Assembly (NCBI RefSeq): GCF_032118995.1 | Contig: NC_092652.1 | Coordinates: 27,171,339 to 27,235,338, forward strand | DNA from: Asterias amurensis | Taxonomy: Eukaryota | Direction: 5' to 3' | DNA: 64,000 nt | Shown here: piece by piece, positions 271-61,889 of the stretch | Layout of the letters: each line of letters starts with the position of its first letter | Position numbering within the stretch: the first letter of the stretch is position 1 | Notes under the pieces: model-generated | The model's input: the letters and a program-made list of their open reading frames with translations, nothing else | Database searches by the model: none | Told to the model about the DNA's origin: nothing | Made by a program: the position numbers and the translations under genes

Positions 271-652
271 AGGCAGTGGACACTATTGGTTATTGTCAAA
301 ATAATTATTAGCATAAAACCTTACTTGGAAGCGAGTATTTGGGGAGAGGTTGATGGTATAAAACATTGTGAGAAACAGCTCCGTCTGAAGTGCCATAGTT
401 TTCGAGAGAGAAGTAATTTTCCACGAATTTGATTTTGAGACCTCAAGTTTAGAATTTGAGGTCTCAAAATCAACCATATAAACGCACACAACTTCGTGTG
501 ACAAGAGTGTGTTTTTTCTTTCATTATTATCTCGCAAGTTCGATGACCAATTGAGCTCAATTTCTCACAGGTTTGTTATTTTATGCATATGTTGAGATAC
601 ACCAACTGTGAAAGCTAGTCTTTGAGTTACCATATACTAGTGTCCACTGCCT
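271..652 (+). mobile_element. MITE family A (about 385 bp). It has 19-25-bp TIRs 'AGGCAGTGGACACTATTGGTAAT…ATTACCAATAGTGTCCACTGCCT', an internal 40-bp palindrome 'GATTTCGAGACCTCA…TGAGGTCTCGAAATC', and TTAA flanks at 267-270 and 653-656.
   Basis: A perfect terminal inverted repeat and a TTAA duplication are visible. At least 13 further copies lie in the window. The ORFs on the track inside it (283-537, 321-560) are repeat-derived. Confidence 0.85.
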
Positions 653-837
653 TTAAGGTCATTTAGAAAAATGCATATCATGATTGGTTGTTTTTTTCCC
701 CAACAGATTCAACGCTAGGCCCATATTTAGATTGGTACAAACTTTGACAATCAGTGACAATCTGTGACATTCATGGCTTCCCATAGTTTTCAAACCTTGG
801 TTGGCAAAAACTCGGTCTGTGACGTTCGATAGTATAC

Positions 838-1420
838 AAATATTGACTGCTTCGAGTGCTATGGTTAAAACTATGACTCCCGAGGTGATCTCCGGAGCGT
901 TCTATTTTCCCGAGGCGAAGCCGAGGGAAAATAGAACGCTACGGGGATCACCGAGGGAGTCATAGTTTTTAACCATTGCACGAGTAAATGCAGTCAATAT
1001 TTGTTTTATAACACCCCAAACATTTCTAATGACTGTACTGTTCTTATTACGTTACAGACCTGAATGCTACAATCCACGGACGACGCGAATACAGATTGCA
1101 AACACTTTTACTTACTGTGTTGCATTGTGTCGTGCAATCCGAAGTGGTTACAGACTATTAATTTATTATCCCAGTACACGCAACGGACGTCTGGGTATTG
1201 CACGCCATGTGCTAGTCTGTTGGACTAGCGCATGGCAAACCGACGCTCTATCACATGGCCGTCGTCTGGCAAAACTAAGACATGTCATGTGACGCGCTCT
1301 AAACCAATGAGCAGGCAGAATACTTGCAAGGGGTGTTATAAAAGGGCATAGTACTGACAAAGCTATGTTTAGTCTTGCCGTCATACAGACTACGACCCAA
1401 AGCTGAGTCAAACACAATGT
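838..1420 (+). mobile_element. Dispersed element D, copy 1. It has a 170-bp near-perfect hairpin (841-1008), roughly 330 bp of shared sequence, and then a CCAAT box (1304-1310) and a TATA box 'TTATAAAAGG' (1336-1347) at its 3' edge.
   Basis: The hairpin arms are 'caaatattgactgcttcgagtgctatggttaaaactatgactcccgaggtgatc…gatcaccgagggagtcatagtttttaaccattgcacgagtaaatgcagtcaatatttg'. A second copy with the same order of parts is at 27020-27480, and the homology ends about 20 bp after the TATA box in both copies. Confidence 0.6.
1336..1347 (+). promoter_or_regulatory. TATA box 'TTATAAAAGG', 26 bp downstream of a CCAAT box (ACCAATGAG, 1303-1311), carried by element D copy 1
   Basis: This is the canonical Pol II core-promoter spacing. 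The same pair (TCAATGAA…TTATAAAGACG) is at 27410-27455 in copy 2. Confidence 0.4.
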
Positions 1421-3814: not shown

Positions 3815-4156
3815 CTTGTGTAATATTATCAAAGACCACTATTCTCATGTATCCGAACTAAAAAAATTCATAAAATAAACTGTAAAAATTTTGACTCTAT
3901 TGGTCATCGAAGTTTCCAGAGAATAATAAAAGAAAAACACCCTTGGTTGCACAACTTTGTGTGCTTTTAGATGCATGATAAAAAGGCTTCGTTTTTTGAA
4001 GTGAGAAATTCCCTATTTCTCAAAAACTTTGTTACTTCAGAGGGAGCCGTTTCTCTCAAGGTTTTATACTATCAACAGCTACTATTGCTCGTTACTAAGT
4101 TGTTATGCCAACAATTGTTTTTAGTATTTACCAATAGTGTCCAGTGCCTTTAAAGC
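3815..4156 (-). mobile_element. MITE family A, old degenerate copy
   Basis: The termini are 'caaagaccactattctc…ttaccaatagtgtccagtgccttt', and the internal 'cttcagagggagccgtttctc' segment is shared. Confidence 0.55.
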
Positions 4157-4589
4157 ATGAACAAATTTCCAGCAAATTTGCCTTTTGACAAAACAATATT
4201 CAACCCAAAAATAGATGATCGATTAATCGATTTTAACAGCAAACATAACTGTTCTTCATGCCGTTTTGAGGGAAAATCTCTCACCTTTTTTTACTTAGTT
4301 TGTTGTAGTTAAGGCCTTATTCGCTACTGCATTGGTATAAGTTTATTGTGCAGCTTACTTTGTAAAACATTGATGTCAAACGCCTTGAGAAAAAAAACGT
4401 CTTCGTTGATAACTATTTTATGTTTGAAAATGTATTTGTATTGTTCATTTATGAGCCCTGGAATTTAACATAACATAAACAAAATAATATATACATGGGA
4501 TAGTGAAACAAAAAAATTTCAAAAAAGTCTGCACACTTTTTAATAAATGAAATCTAATGATTTTTGGCGACATTTTCTTCATAGTAAAG

Positions 4590-4950
4590 ACACTGTATAA
4601 CACGTTTGGTAATTGTCAAAGACCAGTATTCTCACTTGGTGTGTCCCAACAATGCATAAAGTGGCATACCTGTGAACATTTGAGCTTAATTTGTCATCAA
4701 AGTTGCAAGAAAATAATAAAAGAACAGACACCCTTGTTGCACAAACGTAAGCTTGCAGTATTTCAGTATTTCTCAAATGCAAATAATTGAGTGAAAAAAT
4801 ACCTCCTTCTCCTTAACTGCATGCGTTACTTCAGAAAGAATCGTTTCTCACAATGTTTTAAACTATCAACAGCTCTTCGTTGCTCGGTACAAAGTTAGTA
4901 TGCTAATATTTATATTTGAGTAATTACCAAACGTTTCCAGTGCCTAATTA
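4590..4950 (-). mobile_element. MITE family A, old degenerate copy
   Basis: The termini are 'ggtaattgtcaaagaccagtattctcacttggtgt…gagtaattaccaaacgtttccagtgcct'. Confidence 0.5.
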
Positions 4951-5929
4951 GTGAGCACAATTTGATCAAGGTGGTCTATACCTACGTACAATATTAAAGT
5001 GTCGATAGAAGTTCGATTTTCAAACAAAGCTTTGACTCCATTAGCACCATGTTAGCTTCTTTCGCATAAACTTGAAACTTACCTTCACCACCAAGATACC
5101 TGCAAGGTAGAGAAGAGCTACCCATCCCCTCATCATTCTAACAAATGTAATCTACTTAAAGGCTAAAGAATACTCCATGAAAGAAACTAAAGACGCCGAA
5201 AGTTGAGTTGAGAGCGTCAACAATTACAGCCTCAACAACCAAGTTTTAAACAGATGCATGTCTATTTGTTTTGCACTGGATGGGCATCCTTATCTATGTA
5301 GGATTAGGCCTAGTGTGTTATGATACCATGATTGTCTATTCATAGATTACTGTTCTTATCAATGTATTCTGGTGACAAAGAAAACTGGTGATTATATAGA
5401 ACTCAACATCAAGCATTCGTCCCAAAACAGTTATAAAGTCACCTTGTTTTGTATAATGCTAGCGCTACACATCGTTGTACCGTTTTTGATGGATTAAGCC
5501 ATAACAGAAATACACAAAGATTAAAATAAAGTGACACACAACAGCATCATTTGTTAAGGTATTAAAATTAAGGACAGTTCAATCCACGACGTTTTGTCGA
5601 ATACATCAGTTCAACGGTTGACAACTCCCTTTCATCAAAACATTCTGAAAGCCCCACGAATGTTCTCCTTTCCGAATTTACACGATTGGTGGTGCTACCG
5701 TCAACATTGTTTACACCGATTCTATAGGAATTCAAAATTCTGCTTGAAATTTCATAGTGATGGAATTTGATGTTGTACTACTCATGTATGGGTGTGTTTG
5801 CATTATTTACTGTTTCGAATGTTATATACCTTTTTTCCATTTCAACATGTAATGTGTTTTATACAATTGAAGTATTTTATACATTCTAGCAATTTGGCCA
5901 GTGGCCACAAATGTAAAGGTAATACCAAT

Positions 5930-6075: not shown

Positions 6076-7821
6076 TTCCATAATACCAAGCTTTTAAACT
6101 CTGAATTAGTTTTCGGATAGGCCCATCAATAAAAAAAAACAATACAAAACTGTACAATAACATGCGTATGATTTTATAAGCAATTGCCATTAAATCAGGG
6201 AAATTTTATAAAATTGAATTGTCTGCTTTTGGATCAACATTCCTTTTAAACTTAAAATGCTTTTGACCAAGTGCCCTATATTATTTTATGTAAAACACAA
6301 TTTCAATACACGAGGTTTTCTCCATTAAATATTATGAAACGGACTTACGATTTACCAAGCTTAGCTCTCATTGTGCCATTTATAGCAGACCCAATACATC
6401 TGTGCCGCAGCATGCAAGGGAGACCTCTGGCTGCCTGTATCTAACTTCACACACCTTACTTCAAAACTGGTGCTGTAAGCATAGGCCTACTATCATTTTT
6501 CTCCACTGTACATGTATATCCCGCGCCACCATTTTGTTCATTGCCTCTCATGCCCGTCAGTAACAAGTACTGCCAGTGAAAATCCAGACATTCCAGAGAG
6601 GCTACGCCCACAGACCAAAAACAAAAACCCCAGAGTAGACCCTTGCAATGCCTTTGTACTTACATAACAGGTAACGTTGCTGCACCAAAGCACTTGCACA
6701 CCTGCCAAAACTATGTACAACAAAGTAGCTACTGCACAGTAGCTCTTGATAACCTGCCAAAATGGTAAAGGAGGGGAGGGTGGAGGTTTAAGGAAAAAGG
6801 GGTGGGTGGATGATGAAGGATGAGTAACGATGGATGAAAGATGAAAAATGAAGGATGAAATGAAGGATGAAGGAGAAAGGGTATTTACTGGTGGATAAAG
6901 GTTGAAAAATGGAGGATGAAGGAGGTAGTTAGAGGGTGGAGGGCAGTGTTATAGCTACGGTGGGCGGTGCTGGGTGGGCCGTCCCCAGGGCTCTCAATTT
7001 TTGCCCAGCACTCTGAGCAAAATACATTATGCTGCCCAGCACAGATTTCAAATATTGTCCCCTTTGCATTGGTCTGAGACACAGCTAATGATAAGGAGTG
7101 AGAAAGAACACAATCCAAAGGCCATTCAAGTATTGGATGGCCCCATGACACAAACAGTTTGGGAACCTGGCCCCACTTCAGCACTATTGGCCCATAATTA
7201 TATGAAGAATTTTGTTGATCCCCTTGCCCCTGGTAGCTTTTCAACAAAATTTGATTTATTGCCCGCCACTAAAATTGGTCTAGCTACAACCCTGGTGGAG
7301 GGTGGAGGATGGAGGGTGGCGGGTGTAGGATGTAGAGTTGAGAATGGAGGATAAAAGGAGAATGAAGGTGTGATCCCGACCAAACATAAAACCCCAATGT
7401 CCAGTTGCCTTAAAAACCGGTATAAATCGGCAAAACAACCCATTATGTTTTTTTGCAGAAATCTTAGGCTTCTGCTCGTTGTGTAGATGGTGTTGCGGTT
7501 ACGATACTGCCAGCCCGCTTCGTACTTCAATCAAAGTTGATAACAGTTGATTAATTAAAGATGAATACTATTTCCCGATATTACTTTTTAATCGACAATT
7601 GATATGTGAATAGGTTTCCCGTGGCTTAACTCGAAGTCAATGTCAATATTGATAGGGTGACACGGGGTAAAGTTCAAGCAAACAGGAGTGGCTTTTCTAA
7701 GAGTCAACATAACAAAGCAAAGCAGGAATCGTTGAGACTGTTATTTTGCAACCATAGACATTCATTGTCGTAGTAGAAAATGAAGCTAAACGCAAAACAA
7801 AATACGAACCGAGACTCTTAA

Positions 7822-8199
7822 AGACACTGGACACTATTGGTAATTGTCAAAGACTAGCCTTCACCGTTAGTGTATCTCAACATATGCATAAAATAACAAA
7901 CCTGTGAAAATTTGAGCTCAATCGGTCATCGAAGTTGCGATATAATAATGAAAGAAAAATAACCCTTGTCACACGAAGTTGTGTGCGTTTAGATGGTTGA
8001 TTTCGAGACCTCAAGTTCTAAATCTGAGGTCTCGAAATCAAATTCGTGGAAAATTACTTCTCTCTCGAAAACTATGTCAATTCAGAGGGAGCTGTTTCTC
8101 ACAATGTTTTATACTATCAACCTCTCCCCATTACTCGTAATCAAGAAAGGTTTTATGATAATAATTATTTTGAGTAATTACCAATAGTGTCCACTGCCT
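7822..8199 (-). mobile_element. MITE family A copy, TTAA-flanked (7818-7821 and 8200-8203)
   Basis: The termini are 'agacactggacactattggtaattg…attaccaatagtgtccactgcct', and the internal palindrome 'gatttcgagacctcaagttctaaatctgaggtctcgaaatc' is present. Confidence 0.8.
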
Positions 8200-8244
8200 T
8201 TAACCCAAAGTGTGTTTCAGATTCCCCGATTAACGTACGCCAAT

Positions 8245-10208: not shown

Positions 10209-11736
10209 ATGTATAATCCTGGAGACGATACTCTAGTCATTGAGAGGAAGGATGTTGTAGACACTGAAACAGAAGATGAAGACGATGATGCGTCTTCATC
10301 CTCAGGGAAAAGATACAAAGGATACTGCTATGGTAGACTTAATCCAGACCTCCTCCTCTGTAAGATATTCTATTTCACCTTCTACGGTTCTTACGGAAGC
10401 TTGTATCCACTCATCGCAATCTACTTCAAGCAACTTGGTCTCACTGCTACTGAGAGTGGTATCCTCGTTGGTATCAGACCATTTGTGGAGTTCTGTGCTG
10501 CGCCAATGTGGGGTGCGGTGGCTGATACATGGCGTAAGGCTAAGTTTATCTTGCTACTTTCACTCGTTTCGTGGTTGGTGTTCACTGAAGCTGTAGCTTT
10601 CATCGAACCTGGGAATACAGTTTGTGTCATGTTGAATACTACCAACCCTAATATTACTGTTGTTGTGGATAGTACTGGCGTCAGGATAACTCATGTTGAA
10701 AGTGTCCCTAAAGGACATGTGGAGGTGGTTGACATTTCTGTCAAGAAGAGAAAATATTCGAATATACGTCAAGACGATGTAAGTTTTCTTAACGAGTCAT
10801 TCACTCAAAGAAATGAGCTGTTTACTACCGATGAGAACAGTGTTTCCACGCCTCCAATTAAAGCCAAAAAACCCTTGGATCGTACATTGACTTTTATCAA
10901 GTACAAATATGAGAACACTAAAAGTGTATTTATTCTACTTCTTCTGTTTATGATTGTTGGCGAGTTCTTCAGCTCACCAACTATCACCCTTGCCGACTCG
11001 GCCACCCTGGGTTACCTCGGCCACCAAAGGATGGAGTTATACGGTCGTCAGAGAATGTTTGGCTCCTTGGCCTGGGGTCTTATCATGTTTCTTGAAGGCC
11101 TGATCTTAGAAAGGACCAAGATAGTGAGTGTAGAATGTGATGGTTATGCGATGCAAGAAAAGGAAAATTACCTTACTTGTTTCGGTACGTATGCTGTGCT
11201 GATCACATGTTCATTCTTCATAGCCACTCAACTTTCTTTCACGTACCAAGCAGCGGAAAAGAAGAAACTCCCAACGTATAAAGATCAATCGTCCGATGAA
11301 TTGATTCTGTTGCAACAGCTTAATACCAGTCGAAAACGCAAAGAAACATACACCAGTAAGAAGAAGAAACAATTGGTCCTTGAAAACAGCGACGATGGGG
11401 AGCCGAAATACAGCGAGGTTCTTGGCTTGTACGCCAGCGTCAAATACGGAACTGTGTTGTACGTCGTCTGGTTTGCAGGCTTCGGGTTTGGGTTCCTCTT
11501 TACATTTCTCTATTGGCATCTCAAGCAGCTTGGAGGACCACCGACCCTGTTTGGAGTTGCATCTATCGTCAATCATTCATCTGAAGTGACTGGATATTTC
11601 TTTAGTAGTTGGTTGATACGGAAGATGGGTCATATTCCATTGATATGTTTGGGATTGATGTGTTTCGCTGTTCGGTTTATTGTCATCTCGTGGCTGGTGA
11701 ATCCATGGTGGGTGCTCGTTGTGGAATCTTTACAAG
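10209..11736 (+). CDS. MFSD6: MFSD6 orthologue (major facilitator superfamily domain-containing protein 6), coding exon 1. The ATG is at 10209 and the donor is CAAG|gtaagg at 11736/11737, leaving phase 1.
   Basis: A 524-aa ORF. 'LLCKIFYFTFYGSYGSLYPLIAIYFKQLGLTATESGILVGIRPFVEFCAAPMWGAVADTWRKAKFILLLSL' aligns along its length to human MFSD6 '[71 protein letters not shown]'. There is a large N-glycosylation-rich extracellular loop, as in MFSD6, and the C-terminal 'YWHLKQLGGPPTLFGV..SEVTGYFFS' is also MFSD6-like. A canonical gtaagg donor follows 'ESLQ'. Confidence 0.85.
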
Positions 11737-12237
11737 GTAAGGTTGGCAAAAGGTTTCCAATATTTATGGAACTGCTGAACTAAAGTTTTAAAATGCTCAG
11801 TGTTTCAAAAGTTTATTTCAATTGTTGCAATACTAAGTACTAAAATTGAAACTTTGCTTTGCAAGGTTCGCAGTATAAAGCATCAAGGCCTGCATGGAAT
11901 AGCTCGCCCGTTGTGGAGGCTCTTAAACGAATCGACATTGTTACTTAGTTTCACTCAAAATTAGTTTGTGTATAACATCATTATCAACAGTGACATCGGA
12001 TTCTGTTTATTTAGGTATTTTGTTGATGTTGATAAGTTGTCGTCTTTACTTTTTGATGAGGGCAAAGAGAAAAAATGACTAATTTTGAAAAAATGTTAAA
12101 CTCATAATGAGTATACGTTCTTTTAATAATCTATCACTCTTGCTGTATTTCATTTCAAATTTGTTTGTCAACTTCTTGAAGACTACTGGCTTGAAACAAT
12201 TCGTTTTTTTGCAAATTGTTTGAAATTCCATGCATGA

Positions 12238-14480: not shown

Positions 14481-15238
14481 AGGCAGTGGACACTATTGGT
14501 ATAATTACTCAAAATAAGGGTTAGCATAAAAACTTCCTTTGTAACAAACAATGGGGAGTTATTGATAGTATTAAAGGAACACGTTGCCTTGGATCGGACG
14601 AGTTGGTCTATTAAAAGCGGTTGAAACCGTTTGTTATGAAATACGTATGGTCAGAAAGATGTTTAAAAAGTAGAATATACTGATCCACACAAGTATCACT
14701 CGAAATTGCACGGTTTTCATTTTACGGCGCGAACTAACACGGTCGGCCATTTATGGGAGTCAAAGTTTTGACTCCCATTGGCCGACCGTGTTTGTCGATG
14801 AGGTAAAAAGAAATCCACGCAATTTCGAGGCATATTTGTGTAGATCATTGTATTCTACTTTTACAACATCTTTCTACCCATATGCATTTTATAACAAACG
14901 GTAACAGACGCTTTTCAAAGACCAACTCGACCGATCCAAGGCAACGTGTTCCTTTAAACATTGTAAGATAAGGCTTCCTCTGAAGTAACGTAGTTTTCGC
15001 GAAATAAGTAATTTTCCACTAAAATATTTGAATTTAATTTCGAGACATCTGAAAGCACACAACTTCGTGTGACTATGGTGTTTTTTCTTCTTCCATTATT
15101 ACCTCGCAACTTCGATGACCAATTGACTACAAATCTTCACAGGTTTGTTATTTTATGCATATGTTTAGATACACCCAAGTAAGAAGACTAGTCTTTGACA
15201 ATTTCATACCAATAGTGTCCAGTGTCTTCAACAATTTC
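14481..15238 (+). mobile_element. MITE family A copy interrupted by a nested MITE family B insertion (14575-14953)
   Basis: The outer termini are 'aggcagtggacactattggtat…ccaatagtgtccagtgtct'. The family-A sequence resumes exactly after the insert, at '…cctctgaagtaacgtagttttcg'. Confidence 0.8.
14575..14953 (+). mobile_element. MITE family B (about 380 bp). It has 36-bp TIRs 'AGGAACACGTTGCCTTGGATCGGACGAGTTGGTC', an internal 49-bp palindrome 'cggtcggccatttatgggagtcaaagttttgactcccattggccgaccg', and TTAA flanks at 14571-14574 and 14954-14957.
   Basis: A perfect long TIR and a TTAA target-site duplication can be read directly. It is nested inside a family-A MITE. Confidence 0.8.
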
Positions 15239-17560: not shown

Positions 17561-19135
17561 TGTACACTGAACATATCATGAGATTTCTCTGCCATTTTCC
17601 TTCATATAGATTCTTATTTAATGCGCCGTCAAAAAAAATAGTGGAAGAAAAGTATTGCCCCGATTTTACCAATGACAAATTCAAATATAAAATAGTATTA
17701 CCTTTTTACAGTTTTAGTTAAAATAGTGTGAAAAGATTACCCCAAACCGCTGTAAGTGAATATTACTAGGATCCTTTTCCCCGATCAAACAAATCCAACA
17801 CCACATAACTAGGGAAAGTTGTCTTAAGTATTTATGATGCAAATTTAAATCTATTAACCACATAATTTAACAACAGTCCACAGCCCAACATCAATCAGTT
17901 ACCCAACACCCAAATAGTTGGACTCTGTTTGGCATAAACAGTTTACTAGTGCAGTCATTAGTCTAACACCCAGTCATCATCAGTAACTCAAAACCCAAAT
18001 TACTGTCTTCCGGTTATGATGACATGCCTGACACCATGTAAAACACAATCTGCAGACCTAAGTCCAACACCATTTTGTTCTGGGGGTACATATGGTTTAA
18101 ACGTCGTACTGCGAACAAAAACAGCATGTATTCAATATAACTGTTAAACATTTAGATCTATGATCAAAGAAAATATTTAAACCCATACAATCACATTGTA
18201 AACATTAATCAACATAATTGACTTACCATAATTCACATTATTATTATAAGTCAACAACTGTCGTAAAGACTATAAACATTAAAAAATCCCATCTTAAAAT
18301 TATTATATTATTATTTACAACAAACGCTTAGATTATAAACTTTCAGTACTCTTGTGATAACGAACCGTATGCTTCCTTAACTTTACAATTATAATTGTTT
18401 TATCGAAAATCAGATAAAAGTCCATATATGGTAAAAAAAAAACCCAAAACACAGAGGCCCAAGTTTGGAAGTCAGTCAAGTCAGAAAGATAATTGCCAAA
18501 ATTGCTTGAATTTAACAACAAAACAAAACAACCCAACAAATGCCCCTGGAAAGAACACGTAGCTGATGTAGGACAGACAAACACCTTCGTAAAAAAATAG
18601 TTATTTACATTCGTAACACCCTTTACCAACTTCTACATTCATACCTTTTTCTTTTTGTATTTAAAACTTTCTTGGTTAATACTCAGATGTAAAACTTTGT
18701 AATTTCTGTATTTTTTAAACTTCTGTTGATCATTTCTCATTTCCTTAGGATGATTACTGATATCTTCTCGGGTTTGGATTAAATAAAGTTTGAATTAGAT
18801 AGTAAAAATCATTCTCGCATATCGCCCCTTGCACAATGATACAGACACAAGGAAATCCACTTTCAACCATATGTTTACCTACTAACTAATATGACGAAGT
18901 GCGCCCTCTGTGTTGTTAAACTTATTTATTTACATAATATTTTCGTTAAATTTGTGTCCGCAACCTTTGGACCTTCTCTTTTGCATTTTTTTAGCTTTCA
19001 GCTAGCAAAAATTTGTCAGTATATACTTTAACTTATGCTTTGGTTGAACCTGAAAAACTGTTTGAACTACCATTTCATATGAATTTGCAATTTTGTTTTC
19101 GTCACTTAATCCAACGCTCAAAGTTTAACAATATT

Positions 19136-19555
19136 AAAGGCAGTGGACACTATTGGTAAATACTCAAAATAGTTATTAGCATAACACCTTACTTGGTAAC
19201 GAGTAATGTGGAGAGGTTGATGGTATAAAACATTGTGAGAAACGACTCCCTCTGGAGTAACGTAGTTTTCGAGAAAGAAGTAATTTTCCACGAATTTGAT
19301 TTCGAGACCTCGGATTTAGAACTTGAGGTCTCAATATCAAGCATCTGAAAGCACACAACTTCGTGTGACAACGGTGTTTTTTCTTTCATAGTTATCTCGC
19401 AACTAATTGAGCTGAATTTTTTACAGGTTGGTTATTTTATGCATATGTTGAGATCCACCAAGTGAGAAGACTGGTCTTTGACAATAATAATACAAAATAA
19501 TAACCAGGGCGTCTCAAAGTGCTTCAATTTTTTATACCAATAGTGTCCAGTGTCT
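19136..19555 (+). mobile_element. MITE family A copy, TTAA-flanked, with a roughly 40-bp internal insertion
   Basis: The termini are 'aggcagtggacactattggtaaatactc…ccaatagtgtccagtgtct', with TTAA on both sides. Confidence 0.8.
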
Positions 19556-21219: not shown

Positions 21220-21856
21220 CTGGAAATAAATCACAAACCAGTTTAGAACACTTGGTGGAAACACTTGAAGGAACAAGATGAATCAAGAAATTCAAAAAGT
21301 GTTTTTAGCAGACTTCGAGTTCGAGTGTGTGGTTAAGGATGCTTGAACACTCGGCAAACATTGTGTACTGAGGAGAGGATTAAGCTCCGTCAAAAGAAAT
21401 GGGGAAATGTCCCCGATGACGCAGAAAACATTTGGACATAAAACTAGCACTGAATTCACAGAATATATGAGAACATGTCGATTATCAAATTCGGAGGCAA
21501 GTTGCCAGATAAATATTGCCTGTTATCTCTTTAATTGTTAAGCTTTACAATATGCCTTGTTAAAGTAAATCAAACGCTCTTTGAAATTTAGGACCAGTTT
21601 TTACCTTCTAAAACAAGTTGAGAAACTGGTAAACAATAAACCGTTTACCTGTGTAACATTGATGTAACACTCCATTAGGCCTACCGGTGATAACAACCAT
21701 TAACCAGTGGTAATCAACCATTTACCAGTAGTAAACTAATAGTTCTCCAGTGGTGATAATAATCATTTACCCGTGATAACAACCGTTACCAGAAGTTATA
21801 TCAACCGTTTACCAGAAGTAAACTAATAGTTCCCGCTGTTGGTAATAAAGATTTAC

Positions 21857-21968
21857 CTGTGGTAGCATTTTCCAGCCGTTGGTGGCGACATCATCAATGG
21901 CCTCTAAGACAAAGTTAGTCACCTCGTCGGAGAAGAAGAAAGGCAGATTCAATCGAGTGAATCCAGGT
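21857..21968 (-). CDS. SufS-like gene exon (R PGFTRLNLPFFFSDEVTNFVLEAIDDVATNGWKMLPQ)
   Basis: The acceptor is ttcataatag|A and the donor is CCACAG|gtaaat. The phase matches the previous exon: AG + A gives Arg. 'TRLNLPFFFSDEVTNFVLEAIDDV' aligns to the SufS C-terminus '[24 protein letters not shown]'. Confidence 0.6.
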
Positions 21969-26603: not shown

Positions 26604-27019
26604 CTAGATGAAGGAAATATTATATACAATATTTATTTAAAATGTGATATTCATTTCATCAAGGTATTTTAAGAACACAATATACTGGATTGTTAATGAT
26701 TGATCGTGTGACATTTGCAGTCATTATGATGTTTCATTGTGGAAGTTTAATAAATTGGGAGCTGCATTTTTCGGAAATAGTTTTGTGCATTCTTAAATGA
26801 AACATGGAATACAAGTTATATTTTTAACAATAAATTAAATATGGACTGTAATTTTGAAGTATTTATTCAAACAACTTATGCATACAAATGAGCATTATCT
26901 TAAAGACCATTCGTACATGGCGACTTTGTCAGGACCGCTATTTTAGAGTACCAACTGGTAAGCGTTTAATCTTCCTACATAGTGATATTGACTCATAGCG
27001 CAACCAAGACTTAATTTTT

Positions 27020-27480
27020 TACAAATATTGACTGCTTCGAGTGCTATGGTAAAACTACGACTCCCGAGGTGATCCCCGGAGCGTTCTATTTTCTCGAGGC
27101 GCAGCCGAGGGAAAATGGAACGGTCCGGGATAACCGAGGGGGTCGGAGTTTTAAACATAGCACGAGTTAAAGCAGTCAATATTTGTTTTATAACACACCC
27201 AACAGACTATTATCATCTTCGTATACACATGTACCGTTCGTACGCGCGTTTCAGATACACAGATGCATAACTGATTGGGTTCGAGGTGGATAAAAGACGT
27301 CTGGGTACTGCATGCCGTGTGATAGTCGTCGGACTACCACACGGCAAACGATGCACTATCACACGGCCGCCGTCTAGTAAAACTAAGACATATCATGTGA
27401 CGCGCTCTAAATCAATGAAAAGGCAGAATATTTGTATGGGGTGTTATAAAGACGGGTAGCACATGACGTTATTGACCACC
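27020..27480 (+). mobile_element. Dispersed element D, copy 2 (hairpin at 27025-27187, with CCAAT/TATA at 27410-27455). It lies inside an intron of the SufS-like gene, antisense to it.
   Basis: It is roughly 85% identical to copy 1 over the hairpin and over 'gacgtctgggta.tgca.gcc.tgtg…aaaactaagacat.tcatgtgacgcgctctaaa.caatga..aggcagaata.ttg.a.ggggtgttataaa'. Confidence 0.6.
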
Positions 27481-45242: not shown

Positions 45243-46241
45243 GGCTAGTCCTAAGTTAGGACGAGTAACTTGTCCGAACTGGATATAAGTTTAGTTTTAA
45301 CTCTTTGTGAAACCCATCCCTGGTATCGCCGTACAAAAGATATTCTAGTCTTTGTACAATTGGGACACAAATATTGTCTGCTCATGGAGGCTAGGCTGGG
45401 TTTGGGGGCTGTTTTTGGAACCTGGTTTTGGAGTTGGCCATTGAAGTTGGGCATGGATTGAGTAAAGTGAATGGACAATCTAACTACAAAGTTGATCTAT
45501 ACAAAGCGAGCCAGGTTAATAGTATTTACACATTCATATTTCAACCTTGAGCTCTACATCTCTATCCACTACGGATGCAAATGTGTCCGAGCGGACACAA
45601 TTGCATTATGCAGCAGCGTCCGGGCGGACCCGATTGCATATGCAAAACCGTCCGGCAGACATTATTGCATATGCAATAACGTTCTCCGGATAGTATTGCA
45701 TAGAGGACATAAACTGTATGCGACACCAGACTGTGTGTACGGTAGTGATAATACCTTTTCAAGGGTTATGACTTAGGAAGTCCACGGAGATGACCCTGGG
45801 TTGGAGGGTGATGACTTTTAGTGTTGCTTTGTGTGTATTTTAAATCATTTCTAAAAGTCGAATAAATCAACGGTACGATTATAACAAACACTGACAATCA
45901 GTTTATATTCTTTCGGAGTCTGTTTGTGATATGAATTTTGAGTTGAATTGAGCGAGGTTACCTACATCATTAGAGACATTTTGAAAGGCAACTCAGAAAT
46001 TGTCATCCAAGTTTGTATCTGAAGAAAAGACAAATCTTTAAGATGGAAACATCTCATAAAGACGTTTGTCTATATAGCTGTAATAAGATGTGGTCGTTTT
46101 TGTTTATTTTATTATAGCAGTCTATCATTACAATAAAAATACGTCACACATTTATTTCAATGCCTTGATGTTTGTAAAACAAAGAACACTCAGAGGGTTT
46201 TGAAACTTTGCTCGACAGGAAAACAAGACTCTTTGGCAACA

Positions 46242-46538: not shown

Positions 46539-47763
46539 GGTGGTTCTGTCTCTTAAAGTTTGCGGCAACATCAAAACTAAAGATATCGGATATAGTTGTG
46601 GTGTTTTTTTTTACTTTTTGAAACGAAATCCATGGTTTAACCACGACGTTTCAACCAGCATTTTGGTCAATATGGTGGCATAGTGTGGTGCTTTCCATAG
46701 CATTCAAAGCATGGTTTCTATGCATATCAGTTTCTAATAAACTAAGGACAGATCCTCCAATATTTCAGGCGAGGTTTACACACCCTTTTACGTTTTTTGG
46801 AAAAGCCGTCCACCGCATGACTGCAATAATATTTGACCCTTTTGATTGACAGCCAACCCGGATGTCTGGAGTGCGGTACTTGACTGAATTATTGCGGGTA
46901 CACATAGTGTCCTAAGCCCACAGGTCAAGGGGCCAAGACACTTCACACACCCTTCTGCCTTTAATACTCTATGCTTCTCTCTAGCTATATCACCCTAGAA
47001 CTCCAAGACGCGTTTACACTGGATCCAGAAAAGTGGAGGGCTAACTGGGATTTTAAATATTTAATCGCCCCGTGTAAATTTCTGGAGTATAAATACAACA
47101 AAGGTTTTGAGAACACAGTACACTTATGTCATTGGATGAGTAAACAAAAGCAGGAGTTTGTACATGATAACGAGATTATGTCACGAGGATAAGATCGCCC
47201 CCAGGGGGAGTAGAGAACCTCAGGTGCACCAATGTGTGGTCAGGGGGTATATTCAATGGGGTCGAGGGGGGGGGGGGGGGGGACTTGAGACTGATTAATA
47301 TCCGAAATAATGGAGCAGATTTCTGTTCAGACCATGGCACGGGGTAGATTGATTAGATAGTAGATTTTATGGGTTGACCTTTTGGTTTTTTTTTTTTCGG
47401 GGGGGGGGGGATTTGAGACCTTTTATTGCAGTATCCGAAAGGAAATATTGGAGCAGAATTCGAGTGCTCAGTAAGGGCCATTCAGATTATTCAATGCTAC
47501 AAAATTTCGAACTATTTTCGAAAATGTTTCGATCTTGACACAATGAATGGCTTCATAATAATTAGGATCCCCCAGCTAACCGCTGATTTCACAATGACAA
47601 GAATAATTATTGTCATCTAGTTACTGAATCACAATTTCTTGATTTGTGTAATTCATAATCATAGACGTTAAACCAATGTTTGTGAGAGAGATTGGTTGTT
47701 GCCAGCTTGGTGTTTATATCCCTTGTGGGAGTTTGCCGAGTTCCCTTGATGGGAAGATCATCT

Positions 47764-47958
47764 AAACAAACAAACAAACAAACAAACAAACAAACAAACA
47801 AACAAACAAACAAACAAACAAACAAACAAACAAACAAACAAACAAACAAACAAACAAACAAACAAACAAACAAACAAACAAACAAACAAACAAACAAACA
47901 AACAAACAAACAAAAAACAAACAAACAAACAAACAAACAAACACACAAACAAACAAAC
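47764..47958. repeat. (CAAA)n / (CAAACAAA)n microsatellite, about 195 bp
   Basis: It can be read directly. It explains the overlapping 'QTNKQTNK' and 'VCLFVCLF' ORFs. Confidence 0.95.
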
Positions 47959-49139
47959 CTGTACACAGAGGAGCAAAGTAATGTCTCAAATGAAGCATGT
48001 ATTTTAGATTAAAGGTCTCAAACACCCATCGTTGTCAATGACTTTTACTGGATTAAACAAACAACTTTTACTTTGTACTTAATATAAACCCTTGCCCAAT
48101 TGTGCTGGTTTTCCCCCAGTTTAAGAGTTTTCCTCCCACATTTAAAACCTCAATGTTAATACTCAGTTATTGCGCTGTGGCATTCGCGTTCTCAACACGT
48201 TGTGTTTTAGTTTGTATGCATTTATGCGTATCGTTTATGGTTAGACTATAATCTCGAACAAATTTAAACATATGGATGGGATGTTTCTTTATTGTCATGT
48301 TTTAGCTAATACAACAGCTGTTTAGAATAATGTTGAACATCACAGACAATAAAAAGCTATAAAAATTAATTATCTTCATCCATTACCCACTCAAGGGTGT
48401 TGCCAGCACATGTGCATTTAATACAATATTGCTTATAAGTTGGCTTTTTGATTAACATAGGCACCACAAATGTAAAAAAATAACTATAATAAAAATTCAA
48501 GACATAAATTACTCTTATTTCCAGAAAGAATGTCTATTTTAAAGATTATTTAATTTAGGGGCCACCATGACTTTTACAAATTAGGGATTGACCCCCAAGT
48601 GTTTTTTCAAAACCAAAGGTGCAGACCTTTGCCTTAGGTTCCGTCTTCGGTTTCGAAACTGTTTGATTTTGACCATTGCAGACCACGTTTCGAAAAGACA
48701 AAGTTTGCAAGGACAATCTTGAAACTACAGGGGTGCTTTCAGAGTTTGTGTTTGGGTTTTGAGTTTACTTCAAAGAATTTGATTCCAGATTTCAACTCGA
48801 CAGTGATAATTTCCCCGAACGAAAAGTTTCGGTAGGCCTATTCGGTCAGACCATCATCATCATCATCATCATTCTCTGTGGACCATCAAGGGGGACGTAG
48901 AGCCGCCCAAACCAGACGATTGCTTGCAGACAGCCACAGCTGCTGTGCCGGCGAGTGGTGGTCGACTTCTAGCTGGCGCAACCAGGTGTTGCGTGGTCGC
49001 CCTCTGGGTCTCTTCCAGGCAGGGCCAGGACGTAGACTATGAACATTCGGCATGGGGTAGATTTGATGGGTGGAATGGGGGTTTGGTACTTGTGGGGTGG
49101 ATTGGGTATGGGCATGGAGGTAGTTCTACCTCCATGGTG

Positions 49140-51629: not shown

Positions 51630-53082
<1,453 letters not shown>

Positions 53083-54719: not shown

Positions 54720-55075
54720 TCGCAAGTCCTGTTCTATCACCCCCATTCTGAAACAACTACACTGGCTCCCTATCTCTCAACCAATCATCTTCAAGCTGAT
54801 GCTCGTTGTCCACAAAGCACTTAATGGCAAGGCTCCCCACTATATTTCTGAACTGCTTCAAATTTACACTCCATCAAGGAATCTTCGATCAAGTTCCATG
54901 CTTCTCCTCATTGAATCCAAGTCTCGACACTCATGGGGTGACAGGTCTTTTTCTTCAGCTGCGCCACGCATCTGGAACTTAATCTTAGATCTTGTCTTTA
55001 TACCACAAAATTCAAATCTCTTCTCAAAACTTATCTTATGTCACAGGTTTTCAAGGACTAATTTTGTTGTGTCTG
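54720..55075 (+). mobile_element. Transposon-derived conserved ORF fragment (…LHWLPISQPIIFKLMLVVHKALNGKAPHYISELLQIYTPSRNLRSSSMLLLIESKSRHSWGDRSFSSAAPRIWNLI…NLFSKLILCH)
   Basis: It matches the widely dispersed repeat-encoded motif 'LHWLP…KAL.G.AP.Y…LL..Y.P.R.LRSS…GDR.F…APRLWN.LP…FK..LKTHLF' that turns up in many hypothetical proteins of fish, amphibians and invertebrates. A (TTA)n tract at 55148-55200 follows it. Confidence 0.55.
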
Positions 55076-55147
55076 TTTTTCTTTGTTTTTGGTTTTACTG
55101 CGCCTTGAACACCCAGCAGGGTGGATATGTGCGCATTTCAAGTCTTA

Positions 55148-55153
55148 TTATTA

Positions 55154-55200
<47 letters not shown>
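55148..55200. repeat. (TTA)n microsatellite
   Basis: It can be read directly. Confidence 0.9.
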
Positions 55201-55202
<2 letters not shown>

Positions 55203-57454
55203 GTGTTGTATGATTTGACTTGGTCAAGCGTGTTTTTAACAACTTAGGGAACAAATTAGCTCATTGCTTTGGCCCAGATACCACTCCCCCCAGGACCTAA
55301 ATAATCTACTCGCTTAAAAAAGAAACAATAGCATATCTCCCCCTTCACACAAACACCCTGGGGGGAACCTAAAGATCACCATTTATTTCTTTCCACCTGT
55401 TAATCCATTCAACGTCTACCTCTAAGGATCAAACTTCAAAAGTTTCACGCTAATCTCTTTTTGAAAAACATCCCAAATAAGTTGTTAAGGAGACAGGTAG
55501 GGGGTAAATTATTGCACTTGTTATTTTGAAGTCAAACAGCTTATTCAGTGGAGTGACAAAGCTGATTTTGAAGTATTCTCAACCTAATGGACACACATGA
55601 TGAAACCTGATCAATAGAAAGTTCTCATTTTTATTTTGGATTGTTTTGTTGTGCCTTAGGGTTGAGTTGACTTTCCCATGAATGATTGATGTTCATCGTT
55701 GAAATTGTTATTAATTTCTAAAGTGTGCTTTAAAAACGATATTTTATTGCTTTGTTGTTAACTACGATCAGTGATTGAAAATAAATTGTCATACGCCCTG
55801 GGTGGCGTCGGAGGAAAGCACAAAATGTTTGATCCATGATGAAAAGAAAAGTAAAAAGTGGAAATGGCGTCGCATAATGGCGTCGCATAAAATGGCGTCG
55901 CATTTCAGACCTACATGTAGCAGAGTCTTTTTCATTTAACCGATGAGAAAGATATAACTAGGGTAAAAATGTGAGTTCAGAACTATTTCCTGCATTAATT
56001 TGGTCAATTTATTTACCTAATTTGAAAGTATGAAGGAAATATATAAAGGGTTGCTTTACTTTTTTTCAAAACCAGAGGAAAAAAAGCGACACGAAGGTGA
56101 CTATAGCAGCCATAAATAAATACTAAATATAACCATTCACGATACAACCTTACTCTAATTCTCTAAAACTGTCAAGAAATGATTCATATCATAAATAGGA
56201 CTCTGCACTAATGCTAAAAATAGACTCTAAGTACCGAATCACAGACTAATGTTTTAAATTCCAAGAACATCAAGAATGGTATTTGGTCATTGGGAAAAAG
56301 AGGAAAATTTTATCGAGCACAACGGCTGACCTACGTGTATACAAGGTGTAGGCTTTAATTTTCATATATTTTAAAAGCAATTTAATTGTTCAGACCTTTC
56401 CCAAGGGAAACAAAAATTGAAAATCGGACTAAAGTAGGAAGAATATCGTGTCTGGAACATTACCAAGTTTTAAGTTTACTCGCGAAACTGACTCAACTAC
56501 TAGTACAGGCAATCTTACAGATCAAGTTTGTGGGGTCCAGCCATTATTGGTTTTTTATTCCCTTTTCTAAAGAATTCCTCCGTTAGGTCCAAAATGAACA
56601 AAGGACATTGTTTGTGGGGTCTATTTTTCCGCTGTGTAACGACCCCACAATGGTTTGTGAGTAAGAACAGTTTGGCGCACTGATCATGCGGTGGTCGCAA
56701 TCATGGTGGAATGCTTTTCTAATGGCTGAGCATTTTTATCAAATATGATGTCATTTAGTTCGGAGTGCTAGTGGTTATTTTTCATACTCATTTTTTCATT
56801 TTTTTCCCATAACTAAACATATATAAAATTTGTAACATAGAATAACAAACCCAATACACAACAACCACAACAACAATTTCTGGTTTAAATATTCACCCTC
56901 GAAATATTACACCAAAAACAAAATCAAGTCTGGAAGTACGGTTCCTACCACACAAAAACTTATGGTCTTTAAACTTATGAAAACAGCAAGCTCTGTGGAA
57001 TACGAATGATGAAATCTGAGTATAATAATATTACTTTCACAAAAAACCTGTGTTTGCTTACAAAGATCAACACTCAAGTTTTAGAATGCTTTGTCATGTT
57101 AGTTTATTGCGTTGTGAGCTCTTTGCCTGTAGTAGGTCATGCATCTATTGAACTACAATGTAACCATGGTAACACATTTGTTCACCAAGTTGTTAATCAA
57201 CAATGGAAGTTAAGTGTTGTCAATAAAAATATTACAGCATGTACTTGCAGGAAAGTAAACAGAGCAATAACAACTGGGATATCTTTTGTGGTGGGTGCAA
57301 ATACCAAACACCAACTCACAGAAAAAAAAGGTTGCAAACAAGACAACAAAAGATGTATTATATTTATTGGTGGTTGCCAACCGGTAGAAATCGGCCAGTC
57401 AAGGCACCCCCGAACAAAGATGTTGACAACATAGGGAGCCCGCCAACATAGGGC

Positions 57455-61354: not shown

Positions 61355-61733
61355 AGGCAGTGGACATTATTGGTAGTTACTCAAAATAATTATTAGCATA
61401 AAACCTTACTTGGTGACGAGTAATGGGGAGAGGTTGATGGTATAAAACATTGTGAGAAACGGCTCCCTCTGAAGTGCCATAGTTTTTGAGAAAGAAGTAA
61501 TTTTCCATGAATTTGATTTCGAGACCTCAGATTTAGAACTTGAGGTCTCGAAATCAACCATCTAAACGCACACAACTTTGTGTGACAAGGGCGTTTTCTT
61601 CTTTCATTATTATCTCGCAAGTTCGATGACCAATTGAGCTCAAATTTTCACAGGTAGGTTATTTTATGCATAAGTTGAGATACACCAACTGTGAAGGCTA
61701 GTCTTTGAAAATTACCAAAAGTGTCCACTGCCT
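61355..61733 (+). mobile_element. MITE family A copy, TTAA-flanked (61351-61354 and 61734-61737)
   Basis: It is about 95% identical to the copy at 271-652. Confidence 0.85.
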
Positions 61734-61889
61734 TTAAACAGCGCTCAAATCTGTCACACAGTGACACTTTTGACATTATTCCCCTGGTCACTGGGCCATT
61801 TATTTCTCCCTTAAACAATCTAAGCTTCCTGGGGAGTAGACATCCTGTGCTGCTAAGTAGCACACAAAGCTAAATCATTCACAAGAACC

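What the first reader, a model, noticed from the sequence alone, without database searches (positions are those of the whole stretch)
838..1420. Dispersed roughly 600-bp element pairing a 170-bp perfect hairpin with an outward-facing CCAAT/TATA promoter module (2 copies)
The copies at 838-1420 and 27020-27480 share three parts in the same order. First comes a long near-perfect palindrome (arms about 80 bp). Then comes about 330 bp of shared sequence. Last is 'CATGTGACGCGCTCTAAACCAATGAGCAGGCAGAATACTTGCAAGGGGTGTTATAAAAGG', a CCAAT box 26 bp upstream of a TATA box. Homology stops about 20 bp downstream of the TATA box, which is where a transcription start site would lie. A mobile unit that carries a ready-made Pol II core promoter firing into its flank, plus a stable hairpin, could act as a portable promoter or a source of small or hairpin RNA. 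Copy 2 sits in an intron of the SufS-like gene in antisense orientation.
Basis: partly seen in the sequence, partly recalled or inferred. Interest (0 to 1): 0.55.

Follow-up and report, generated by a model that had tools for sequence, protein, structure and literature searches.

The report
Helitron-type non-autonomous transposon in starfish
The two "hairpin plus promoter" units are copies of a small non-coding jumping gene in the starfish Asterias amurensis, built like a Helitron2/Helentron rolling-circle transposon, and the supposed TATA box is one of its terminal inverted repeats, so this is an ordinary repeat family with one unusual feature, a very long end hairpin.

Summary
The repeat is real, but the description needs correcting. 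Copy 1 is 833-1342 and copy 2 is 27018-27450.

Each copy has four parts:
- an imperfect palindrome of about 170 bp (arms 82% and 77% complementary, not perfect);
- a 13-14-nt repeat next to it, TTTTATAACACCCC;
- a centre that the two copies do not share;
- a conserved end module of about 155 bp that ends in GGGGTGTTATAAA.

That last motif is the inverted copy of the repeat beside the palindrome. The "TATA box" is therefore a terminal inverted repeat, and homology stops at it, not 20 bp beyond it.

The window comes from Asterias amurensis. At the matching site in A. rubens, copy 1 is missing cleanly and there is no target-site duplication. A neighbouring MITE, checked in the same comparison, does show a TTAA duplication. 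One metagenome scan found five more family members in unrelated flanks, so this is not a segmental duplication.

On the minus strand the layout is 5' repeat, variable centre, 3' repeat, terminal stem-loop. Together with the lack of a duplication, this matches non-autonomous Helitron2/Helentron elements (HINE/DINE-1-like). Three points depart from the described type or remain open:
- the stem is 82 bp, against the usual 5-10 bp;
- no T-T target preference is visible;
- no autonomous partner could be searched for.

Promoter and small-RNA activity remain untested.

The parts
833..1342 (-). Copy 1, whole element (510 bp). Read on the minus strand it runs 5'-TTTATAACACCCC ... palindrome ... TTTGTATA-3'.
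   Evidence: Its boundaries equal the gap against A. rubens: L001 reads ...CGATAG^AGGCGTATAGTACTG, the window reads ...CGATAG[833..1342]AGGGCATAGTACTG. They coincide with where homology to copy 2 and to L006/L007/L004 ends.
836..1004 (-). Copy 1 long terminal palindrome (stem about 82 bp, 3-nt loop), 3 nt from the element end. This is the proposed 3' stem-loop.
   Evidence: Arms 82% complementary. DNA fold -65.6 kcal/mol, z = -16.6. Six CGAG and no CTCG on the + strand.
1005..1017 (-). Copy 1 inner (3' subterminal) inverted repeat TTTATAACACCCC, directly next to the palindrome.
   Evidence: Inverted-repeat pair I5, 14 nt, 100% complementary with 1330-1343.
1023..1185 (-). Copy 1 variable centre, not shared with copy 2.
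   Evidence: No blastn alignment to copy 2; gapped and unalignable in MAFFT; no tandem repeats.
1186..1342 (-). Copy 1 conserved 5' module. It includes the CCAAT motif (1304-1308) and the block TCATGTGACGCGCTCTAAACCAATGA.
   Evidence: 85.4% identical to 27296-27450; the last 70 nt or so are conserved even in the diverged copy L004.
1204..1236 (-). Copy 1 small internal hairpin (14-bp stem GCCATGTGCTAGTC / GACTAGCGCATGGC, 5-nt loop) in the 5' module.
   Evidence: RNAalifold on 4 copies: 3 of its 13 listed pairs keep pairing through changes on both sides, and none is broken.
1330..1342 (-). Copy 1 terminal (5') inverted repeat GGGGTGTTATAAA.
   Evidence: the end position is fixed by the empty site.
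27018..27450 (-). Copy 2, whole element (433 bp), in an intron of the Aminotran_5 gene and on the same strand as the gene when read in Helitron2 orientation.
   Evidence: nhmmer with the family model, E = 2.4e-142. 93% and 92% identical to L006 and L007. Exon context.
27021..27186 (-). Copy 2 long terminal palindrome.
   Evidence: Arms 77% complementary; DNA fold -47.9 kcal/mol, z = -10.6.
27187..27199 (-). Copy 2 inner inverted repeat TTTATAACACACC (1 mismatch).
27438..27450 (-). Copy 2 terminal inverted repeat GGGGTGTTATAAA.

Best explanation
The two units are copies of a non-coding, non-autonomous DNA transposon family of the starfish Asterias amurensis. The family has the architecture of Helitron2/Helentron (HLE2) rolling-circle elements of the HINE/DINE-1-like kind.

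Read on the window's minus strand, each copy has:
- a 5' end with a short T run and a 12-14-nt repeat (TT(T)ATAACACCCC);
- a conserved 5' module of about 155 nt with a small hairpin;
- a centre that differs between subfamilies;
- the inverted copy of the repeat;
- directly after it, a terminal palindrome of 165-170 nt ending ...TTTGTA(T/A)A-3'.

Inferred mechanism: a Rep-helicase encoded by an autonomous partner elsewhere in the genome nicks one strand at the 5' end and peels it off. It recognises the repeat-plus-stem-loop as the 3' stop signal, then pastes the single strand into a new site without duplicating target bases.

Shown here: the architecture, mobility (a clean empty site in the sister species), the absence of a target-site duplication, several copies and subfamilies, and the lack of coding capacity.

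Inferred only: dependence on a Rep-helicase, which strand is transferred, and the role of the hairpin.
For: 1. Asymmetric inverted repeat. The 14-nt terminal motif at 1330-1343 is the perfect inverted copy of 1004-1017, which abuts the palindrome. Copy 2 has the same arrangement. The repeat is 12-14 nt, within the 12-16 nt given for HLE2. [quoted passage not shown] The HINE description agrees: 12-15-bp subterminal repeats, a palindrome after the 3' repeat, a variable centre (PMC4067079; PMC7492417).

2. No target-site duplication. The orthologous A. rubens site reads CGATAG^AGGCGTATAG where A. amurensis carries the 510-bp insert. A systematic scan of five copies finds no consistent flanking direct repeat. 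As a control within the same comparison, the MITE at 271-652 shows a clear TTAA duplication.

3. The true ends are not inverted repeats of each other (TATACAAAT... against ...GTTATAAA). This argues against a cut-and-paste element.

4. It is a family. Five further members lie in unrelated flanks. L006 and L007 are full length and 92-93% identical to copy 2. L004 is about 69% identical yet keeps both ends. L003 and L005 are partial.

5. Only the ends are conserved and the centre is swapped between subfamilies.

6. The number of terminal T's at the 5' end varies between copies: 3 in copies 1 and 2, 2 in L006 and L007. This has been reported for Helentrons and HINEs.

7. The small hairpin in the 5' module keeps pairing through compensatory changes between subfamilies. 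Helitron2 elements are described as having hairpins at both ends (PMC5148889).

8. There is no coding capacity. ORFs inside the element have no Pfam hit.

9. Helentron proteins and DINE-1-like repeats are already reported in echinoderms (sea urchin).
Against: - No autonomous Rep-helicase element with the same ends could be looked for, because the tools give no access to the starfish genome. The defining link is therefore missing.
- The T-T target preference of HLE2 is not seen. The one unambiguous site (copy 1) is T^C in this orientation, and the other flanks are mixed.
- The terminal palindrome is about ten times longer than described for HINEs. Those have 5-10-bp palindromes, with the 3' repeat 38-60 bp from the end. 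Here the repeat is about 173 bp from the end.
- Orientation cannot be fixed without a coding partner. The plus-strand reading (stem-loop at the 5' end, the 'HLE2-reverse' or proto-Helentron layout) fits equally well.
- There is only one orthologous empty site. It could in principle be a precise loss in A. rubens rather than a gain in A. amurensis.
Confidence: 0.7

Rival explanations
1. A transposon of a so far undescribed kind that inserts without a target-site duplication but is not moved by a Helitron-type Rep-helicase. Candidates would be a single-strand transposase of the IS200/IS605 type or a tyrosine recombinase. In this reading the long palindrome would be the main recognition structure.
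For: There is no duplication and no T-T target preference. The 82-bp stem is far outside the described HINE range. The consensus palindrome is perfect except for three CGAG/CGAG sites, all on one strand, which looks like a designed strand-specific structure. Copy 1 and L006 share the same 4-nt flank (ATAG on the + strand) next to the hairpin end.
Against: The repeat / repeat-plus-stem-loop layout is exactly the HLE2 signature. No eukaryotic family of this alternative kind is known with that layout. A shared 4-nt flank in 2 of 7 copies is weak evidence.
Confidence: 0.13
2. The first reader's view that the unit's main role is as a portable Pol II promoter (CCAAT plus TATA firing into the flank) and as a source of hairpin or small RNA.
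For: The roughly 70-nt end block is the best-conserved non-hairpin part. It contains CCAAT in 3 of 5 full copies and a TATAA motif at the very end. The hairpin would fold strongly if transcribed. This view is compatible with the unit also being a transposon.
Against: TATAA is part of the terminal inverted repeat and recurs inverted beside the palindrome. CCAAT is lost in copy 2 and L004. Conserved ends are expected for transposase recognition. In the palindrome, changes between copies break pairs (only 1 compensatory pair of 73), so inserted copies are decaying and are not kept as RNA genes. There is no Rfam family match above threshold. No expression data were available.
Confidence: 0.1
3. 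Two separate cut-and-paste MITEs that happen to lie side by side: a 170-bp foldback element, and a 340-bp element bounded by the TTATAACACCCC repeats.
For: Each module on its own is bounded by inverted repeats. L003 and L005 carry palindrome sequence without the second module.
Against: The junction ...ATTTGT|TTTATAAC... is conserved at the same position in all five full copies, with single-base changes only in L007 and L004. Both modules are absent together, with a clean joint, in A. rubens. No duplication flanks either module or the whole unit. L003 and L005 are truncated palindromes, not intact solo elements.
Confidence: 0.05
4. A segmental duplication with only these two copies.
For: Only two copies lie in the 64-kb window.
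Against: The flanks are unrelated right up to the ends. Five more members exist elsewhere. Copy 1 is a lineage-specific presence/absence difference.
Confidence: 0.01

Closest known systems
HINE / DINE-1-like elements (non-autonomous Helentrons), e.g. HINE-Mo of the mite Metaseiulus, Cg_HINE of the oyster Crassostrea gigas, DINE-1 of Drosophila (PMC4067079, PMC7492417)
   Same: Non-coding and a few hundred bp long. Inverted repeats of 12-15 nt, one at or near the 5' end and one subterminal at the 3' end. A palindrome follows the 3' repeat. The left and right modules are conserved around a variable centre. No target-site duplication. A short T run at the 5' boundary whose length varies between copies.
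   Different: The palindrome stem is about 82 bp against 5-10 bp, so the 3' repeat lies about 173 bp from the end instead of 38-60 bp. There are no central tandem repeats or microsatellite. No TT or T-rich target is evident. The partner Helentron has not been identified.
Helitron2 / HLE2 in general, including FoHeli1/2 of Fusarium (PMC5148889, PMC11417382)
   Same: Asymmetric terminal inverted repeats. Hairpins near both ends. 3' end features better conserved than the interior. Target preferences that vary between subgroups (FoHeli1/2 do not use TT).
   Different: Those are defined together with their Rep-helicase gene, and here only a non-coding derivative is seen. Their hairpins are short.
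'HLE2-reverse' (FoHeli3-5) and proto-Helentron layout (PMC11417382)
   Same: [quoted passage not shown]
   Different: Orientation in those families is defined by the transposase gene, and it cannot be assigned here.
Foldback elements and MITEs (cut-and-paste non-autonomous DNA transposons). The neighbouring 382-bp MITE at 271-652 is an example.
   Same: Small, non-coding, dispersed, with long inverted repeats that can form hairpins.
   Different: MITEs have matching inverted repeats at both true ends and make a target-site duplication. The MITE at 271-652 has a TTAA duplication. The element studied has unlike ends and no duplication.
Canonical Helitron1
   Same: No target-site duplication and a 3' hairpin.
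   Different: There is no 5'-TC or CTRR-3' on either strand, and the insertion is not A^T.

Membership tests
Helitron2/Helentron non-autonomous element (HLE2, HINE/DINE-1-like) | Short (about 11-18 nt) inverted repeats, one at or near the 5' end and one subterminal at the 3' end | tested here: met
   14 nt, 100% complementary in copy 1 (1004-1017 / 1330-1343). Copy 2 has one mismatch in the core repeat (18 nt, 83% when extended). Conserved in L006, L007 and L004.
Helitron2/Helentron non-autonomous element (HLE2, HINE/DINE-1-like) | Stem-loop or palindrome immediately after the 3' inverted repeat, near the 3' end | tested here: met
   The palindrome abuts the inner repeat and ends 3 nt from the terminus. 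Its size (stem about 82 bp) is far above the described 5-10 bp.
Helitron2/Helentron non-autonomous element (HLE2, HINE/DINE-1-like) | Insertion without target-site duplication | tested here: met
   Orthologous empty site in A. rubens. No consistent flanking repeat in 5 copies. The adjacent MITE serves as a positive control with a TTAA duplication. Only one unambiguous empty site was available.
Helitron2/Helentron non-autonomous element (HLE2, HINE/DINE-1-like) | Insertion between T and T, or into T-rich sequence | tested here: not met
   Copy 1 is T^C on the minus strand (G^A on the plus strand). The flanks of the other four copies are mixed or ambiguous because of terminal A/T runs. With n = 5 this is weak, and some HLE2 subgroups also lack TT preference.
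Helitron2/Helentron non-autonomous element (HLE2, HINE/DINE-1-like) | Ends shared with an autonomous partner encoding Rep-helicase (with or without endonuclease) in the same genome | not testable with these tools
   There is no access to the whole Asterias genome. No Rep-helicase ORF lies in the window. The literature reports Helentron proteins in sea urchin.
Helitron2/Helentron non-autonomous element (HLE2, HINE/DINE-1-like) | Conserved end modules around a variable centre; no coding capacity | tested here: met
   (centre unalignable between copy 1 and copy 2). (no Pfam hit for internal ORFs).
Canonical Helitron1 | 5'-TC, CTRR-3', short hairpin 10-12 nt from the 3' end, A^T target | tested here: not met
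   The ends are TATACAAAT.../...GTTATAAA on the plus strand, or TTTATAAC.../...TTTGTATA on the minus strand.
Cut-and-paste MITE / foldback element | Inverted repeats at both true termini, plus a target-site duplication of fixed length | tested here: not met
   The two ends are unlike each other and there is no duplication.
Known RNA gene or miRNA family (Rfam) | Covariance-model match at the gathering score | tested here: not met
   The best match is MIR6425 at 37.6 bits against a gathering score of 142. Copy 2 has no match.

The most novel reading that the evidence does not exclude
The 82-bp stem is not just an enlarged Helitron stop signal. It may be a strand-marked recognition structure. 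The ancestral palindrome is perfect except for three evenly spaced CGAG/CGAG sites, which form tandem G.A mismatches only on the window's plus strand. This could define either a new subtype of rolling-circle element with its own end chemistry and no TT target, or a duplication-free transposon class unrelated to Helitrons. When such copies sit in introns, they would also yield long hairpin RNA for small-RNA pathways.
Probability: 0.12. Interest if true: 0.55.

Novelty: new member of a known kind. Interest (0 to 1): 0.25.

Why it matters
Mostly for annotation. Asymmetric-end Helitron2/Helentron derivatives are easily mistaken for MITEs, promoters or hairpin RNA genes, and apparently none has been described for starfish. 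This one gives a clean worked example, with exact ends fixed by a sister-species empty site.

The family was active around or after the A. amurensis / A. rubens split, and at least one copy sits in an intron. It could therefore serve as a presence/absence marker, and it may affect neighbouring genes.

The very long terminal palindrome, with three strand-specific mismatch sites, would be worth a look from anyone studying how Rep-helicases recognise Helitron2 ends. It is otherwise an ordinary repeat.

Tried and rejected
1. Copy 2's matching site in A. rubens could not be reached. Two protein searches meant to retrieve the Asterias class-V aminotransferase protein returned only unrelated fragments. 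The A. rubens locus that was fetched ends about 5 kb short of the site.
2. Look-ups of the window's MFSD6-like ORF and of the A. amurensis protein P0001 found nothing on record.
3. Scans of prokaryotic genome contigs and viral contigs for the palindrome arm found nothing.
4. L002, another echinoderm contig fetched through an exon hit, is too distant. Its exons are 73-81% identical and its introns do not align.
5. The candidate third copy at 45367-45381 (1 mismatch to the 15-mer) is a chance match with no surrounding similarity.
6. A 2-bp TA duplication was considered. It would require conserved element sequence to count as the duplicate, and it disagrees with the A. rubens empty site.
7. Covariation in the long palindrome shows only 1 compensatory pair of 73, and the other changes break pairs. 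Structure is therefore not being maintained in the inserted copies.
8. No tandem repeats or microsatellite lie in the centre.
9. A literature search for the source of the JACSEG/JACSEB contigs found nothing. The sea urchin Tsp paper (PMC367020) is not held.

Full report
**What is in the sequence**

Two copies of one repeat lie on the + strand. Blastn aligns 835-1022 with 27020-27204 at 89.4% and 1186-1342 with 27296-27450 at 85.4% (alignment). The stretch between these blocks (1023-1185 against 27205-27295) does not align and differs in length.

Each copy begins with a long palindrome: 836-1004 in copy 1 and 27021-27186 in copy 2. The arms are 82% and 77% complementary, so the palindromes are not perfect. 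Folded as single-stranded DNA they give -65.6 kcal/mol (z = -16.6) and -47.9 kcal/mol (z = -10.6). The end motifs occur far more often than in shuffled sequence: 5 matches against 0.33 expected, and 4 against 0.21.

**The key correction**

That second motif directly abuts the palindrome. Copy 2 has the same pair.

The CCAAT box at 1304-1308 is absent from copy 2, which reads ATCAATGAA. Homology ends at the TATA-like motif itself, not 20 bp beyond it.

**Organism and the empty site**

The 524-aa ORF at 10209-11783 is 100% identical to the MFSD6-like protein of Asterias amurensis, XP_071788425.1. I fetched the matching locus of the sister species A. rubens as L001 (LR699094.1).

The window aligns to L001 on both sides of copy 1 at 88-94% identity, but 833-1342 is missing there. 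At base level A. rubens reads ...GACGTTCGATAG^AGGCGTATAGTACTG.... A. amurensis reads ...GACGTTCGATAG[TATACAAATATTG ... GGGGTGTTATAAA]AGGGCATAGTACTG.... The insert is therefore 510 bp, its ends coincide with the ends of homology between copies, and no target bases are duplicated.

The same comparison contains a positive control. A 382-bp MITE at 271-652, with 15-bp terminal inverted repeats, is also absent in A. rubens and is flanked by a clear TTAA duplication.

**More family members**

One scan of metagenome contigs with a 25-mer from the palindrome arm found five contigs (JACSEG01.../JACSEB01..., loci L003-L007). At least one of them (L004) carries what looks like an animal coding exon. Their source could not be traced.

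- L006 and L007 are full length. They are 93% and 92% identical to copy 2 and 97% identical to each other.
- L004 is a diverged full-length copy, about 69% identical, that keeps both ends.
- L003 and L005 retain only part of the palindrome together with the hairpin-side terminus.

All of them lie in unrelated flanks. Copy 1 is only about 80% identical to the copy-2 group, yet it is absent from A. rubens. The family therefore has several source lineages and was active around or after the species split. A family model finds no further copies in the window, in L001 or in L002. The segmental-duplication explanation is refuted.

**Anatomy from seven copies**

In window + orientation the ends are T(A/T)TACAAATATTGACTGC... 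and ...GGGGTGTTATAA(A). Flanks diverge immediately outside these ends. The two true ends are not inverted repeats of each other.

No register gives a consistent flanking direct repeat in the five full copies. A possible "TA" would have to be taken from conserved element sequence, and it contradicts the empty site.

Read on the minus strand, the element has these parts in order:
- a 5' T run of variable length (3 in copies 1 and 2, 2 in L006 and L007);
- a 12-14-nt repeat;
- a conserved 5' module of about 155 nt;
- a variable centre;
- the inverted repeat;
- the long palindrome;
- the last bases ...TTTGTA(T/A)A-3'.

The internal ORFs have no Pfam match, and the centre has no tandem repeats.

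**Two finer structural points**

First, the consensus of the palindrome is perfectly self-complementary except for a 3-nt bulge and three sites. At each of those sites both arms carry CGAG, so CGAG occurs six times on the + strand and CTCG never. In a + strand hairpin these sites would be tandem G.A mismatches about 30 nt apart. The consensus folds at about -86 kcal/mol on either strand, and in every individual copy the + strand folds slightly better. From my own knowledge, not tested here, tandem G.A pairs in a pyrimidine-GA-purine context are stable. This looks like a built-in strand mark. Among inserted copies, changes mostly break pairs (1 compensatory pair of 73), so the copies are decaying neutrally.

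Second, a small hairpin in the 5' module (copy 1 1204-1236) keeps pairing through changes on both sides at 3 of its 13 listed pairs, with none broken, across the subfamilies. The source elements therefore appear to maintain it.

**Comparison with known kinds**

HINE/DINE-1-like non-autonomous Helentrons are described with the following features (PMC4067079; PMC7492417):
- 12-15-bp subterminal repeats;
- conserved flanking modules around a variable centre;
- no target-site modification;
- a T-rich target;
- T runs of variable length at the ends.

Helitron2 elements are also described as having hairpins at both ends (PMC5148889). Helentron proteins and DINE-1-like repeats are reported from sea urchin.

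The starfish element meets the repeat, stem-loop, no-duplication, variable-centre, non-coding and variable-T features. It departs in two ways. Its stem is about 82 bp, which puts the 3' repeat about 173 bp from the end. It also shows no TT target: copy 1 is T^C and the others are mixed.

The defining link, an autonomous Rep-helicase partner with the same ends, could not be tested. Orientation is not fixed either. The plus-strand reading corresponds to the "HLE2-reverse" or proto-Helentron layout. Canonical Helitron1 signatures (TC...CTRR, A^T) are absent.

**The promoter and small-RNA idea**

No tool here could test transcription. Several observations weaken the promoter reading:
- the TATA motif is the terminal inverted repeat;
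- CCAAT is present in only 3 of 5 full copies;
- conserved ends are expected for transposase recognition in any case.

Rfam gives only sub-threshold matches to generic miRNA hairpin models. Outward transcription, or hairpin RNA from intronic copies such as copy 2, remains possible but has no support. Copy 2 lies between Aminotran_5 exons on the minus strand.

**Verdict**

This is a real, mobile, multi-copy element. It is best explained as a new starfish family of non-autonomous Helitron2/Helentron-type rolling-circle transposons with an unusually long, strand-marked terminal palindrome (confidence about 0.7). It is ordinary in kind and modest in interest. The remaining uncertainty would be settled by a genome-wide census and a search for the Rep-helicase partner.

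Noticed in passing
window 271-652 (TTAA at 267-270 and 653-656): A 382-bp MITE with 15-bp terminal inverted repeats AGGCAGTGGACACTA / TAGTGTCCACTGCCT and a TTAA target-site duplication. It is absent from the matching A. rubens site, which has a single TTAA. Blastn matches to parts of this stretch recur in the window (e.g. 3821-4153, 4585-4954, 7818-8203, 14956-15231, 19129-19485, 61683-61737) and in L001, so it probably belongs to a multi-copy family. It lies only 180 bp from copy 1, so two lineage-specific insertions sit side by side.
   Followed up: partly
window 836-1004, 27021-27186; L006 253-420: The consensus palindrome is perfect except for three sites where both arms read CGAG (6 CGAG, 0 CTCG on the + strand, spaced about 30 nt apart). 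These give tandem G.A mismatches on one strand only.
   Followed up: partly
window 1204-1236 and 27313-27346: A small 14-bp-stem hairpin in the conserved end module shows compensatory changes between subfamilies. In copy 2 a third segment (27355-27367) can pair perfectly with the first arm instead.
   Followed up: partly
window 51630-53078: An uninterrupted (AAT)n microsatellite of 483 units (about 1.45 kb).
   Followed up: no
window 21682-21867; L001 22049-22729: A tandem repeat with a period of about 87 bp next to an Aminotran_5 exon. It appears as one stretch of about 186 bp in A. amurensis but as at least 8 overlapping units in A. rubens.
   Followed up: no
L004 1-470 and 834-946: The L004 family member sits next to a 25-bp minisatellite (4.5 units). 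It is followed by a tandem duplication, with a period of about 290 bp, of the element's last 47 nt plus flank. This may be an end-plus-flank duplication of the kind seen with rolling-circle elements.
   Followed up: no
window 54799-55218 (+): A 139-aa ORF that, from memory, resembles the C-terminal tail of a non-LTR retrotransposon reverse transcriptase. It was not searched against any library.
   Followed up: no
window 47613-47966 (-): An ORF made of repeated LFVC units, meaning a short tandem DNA repeat (about 12 bp unit) spanning roughly 200 bp.
   Followed up: no
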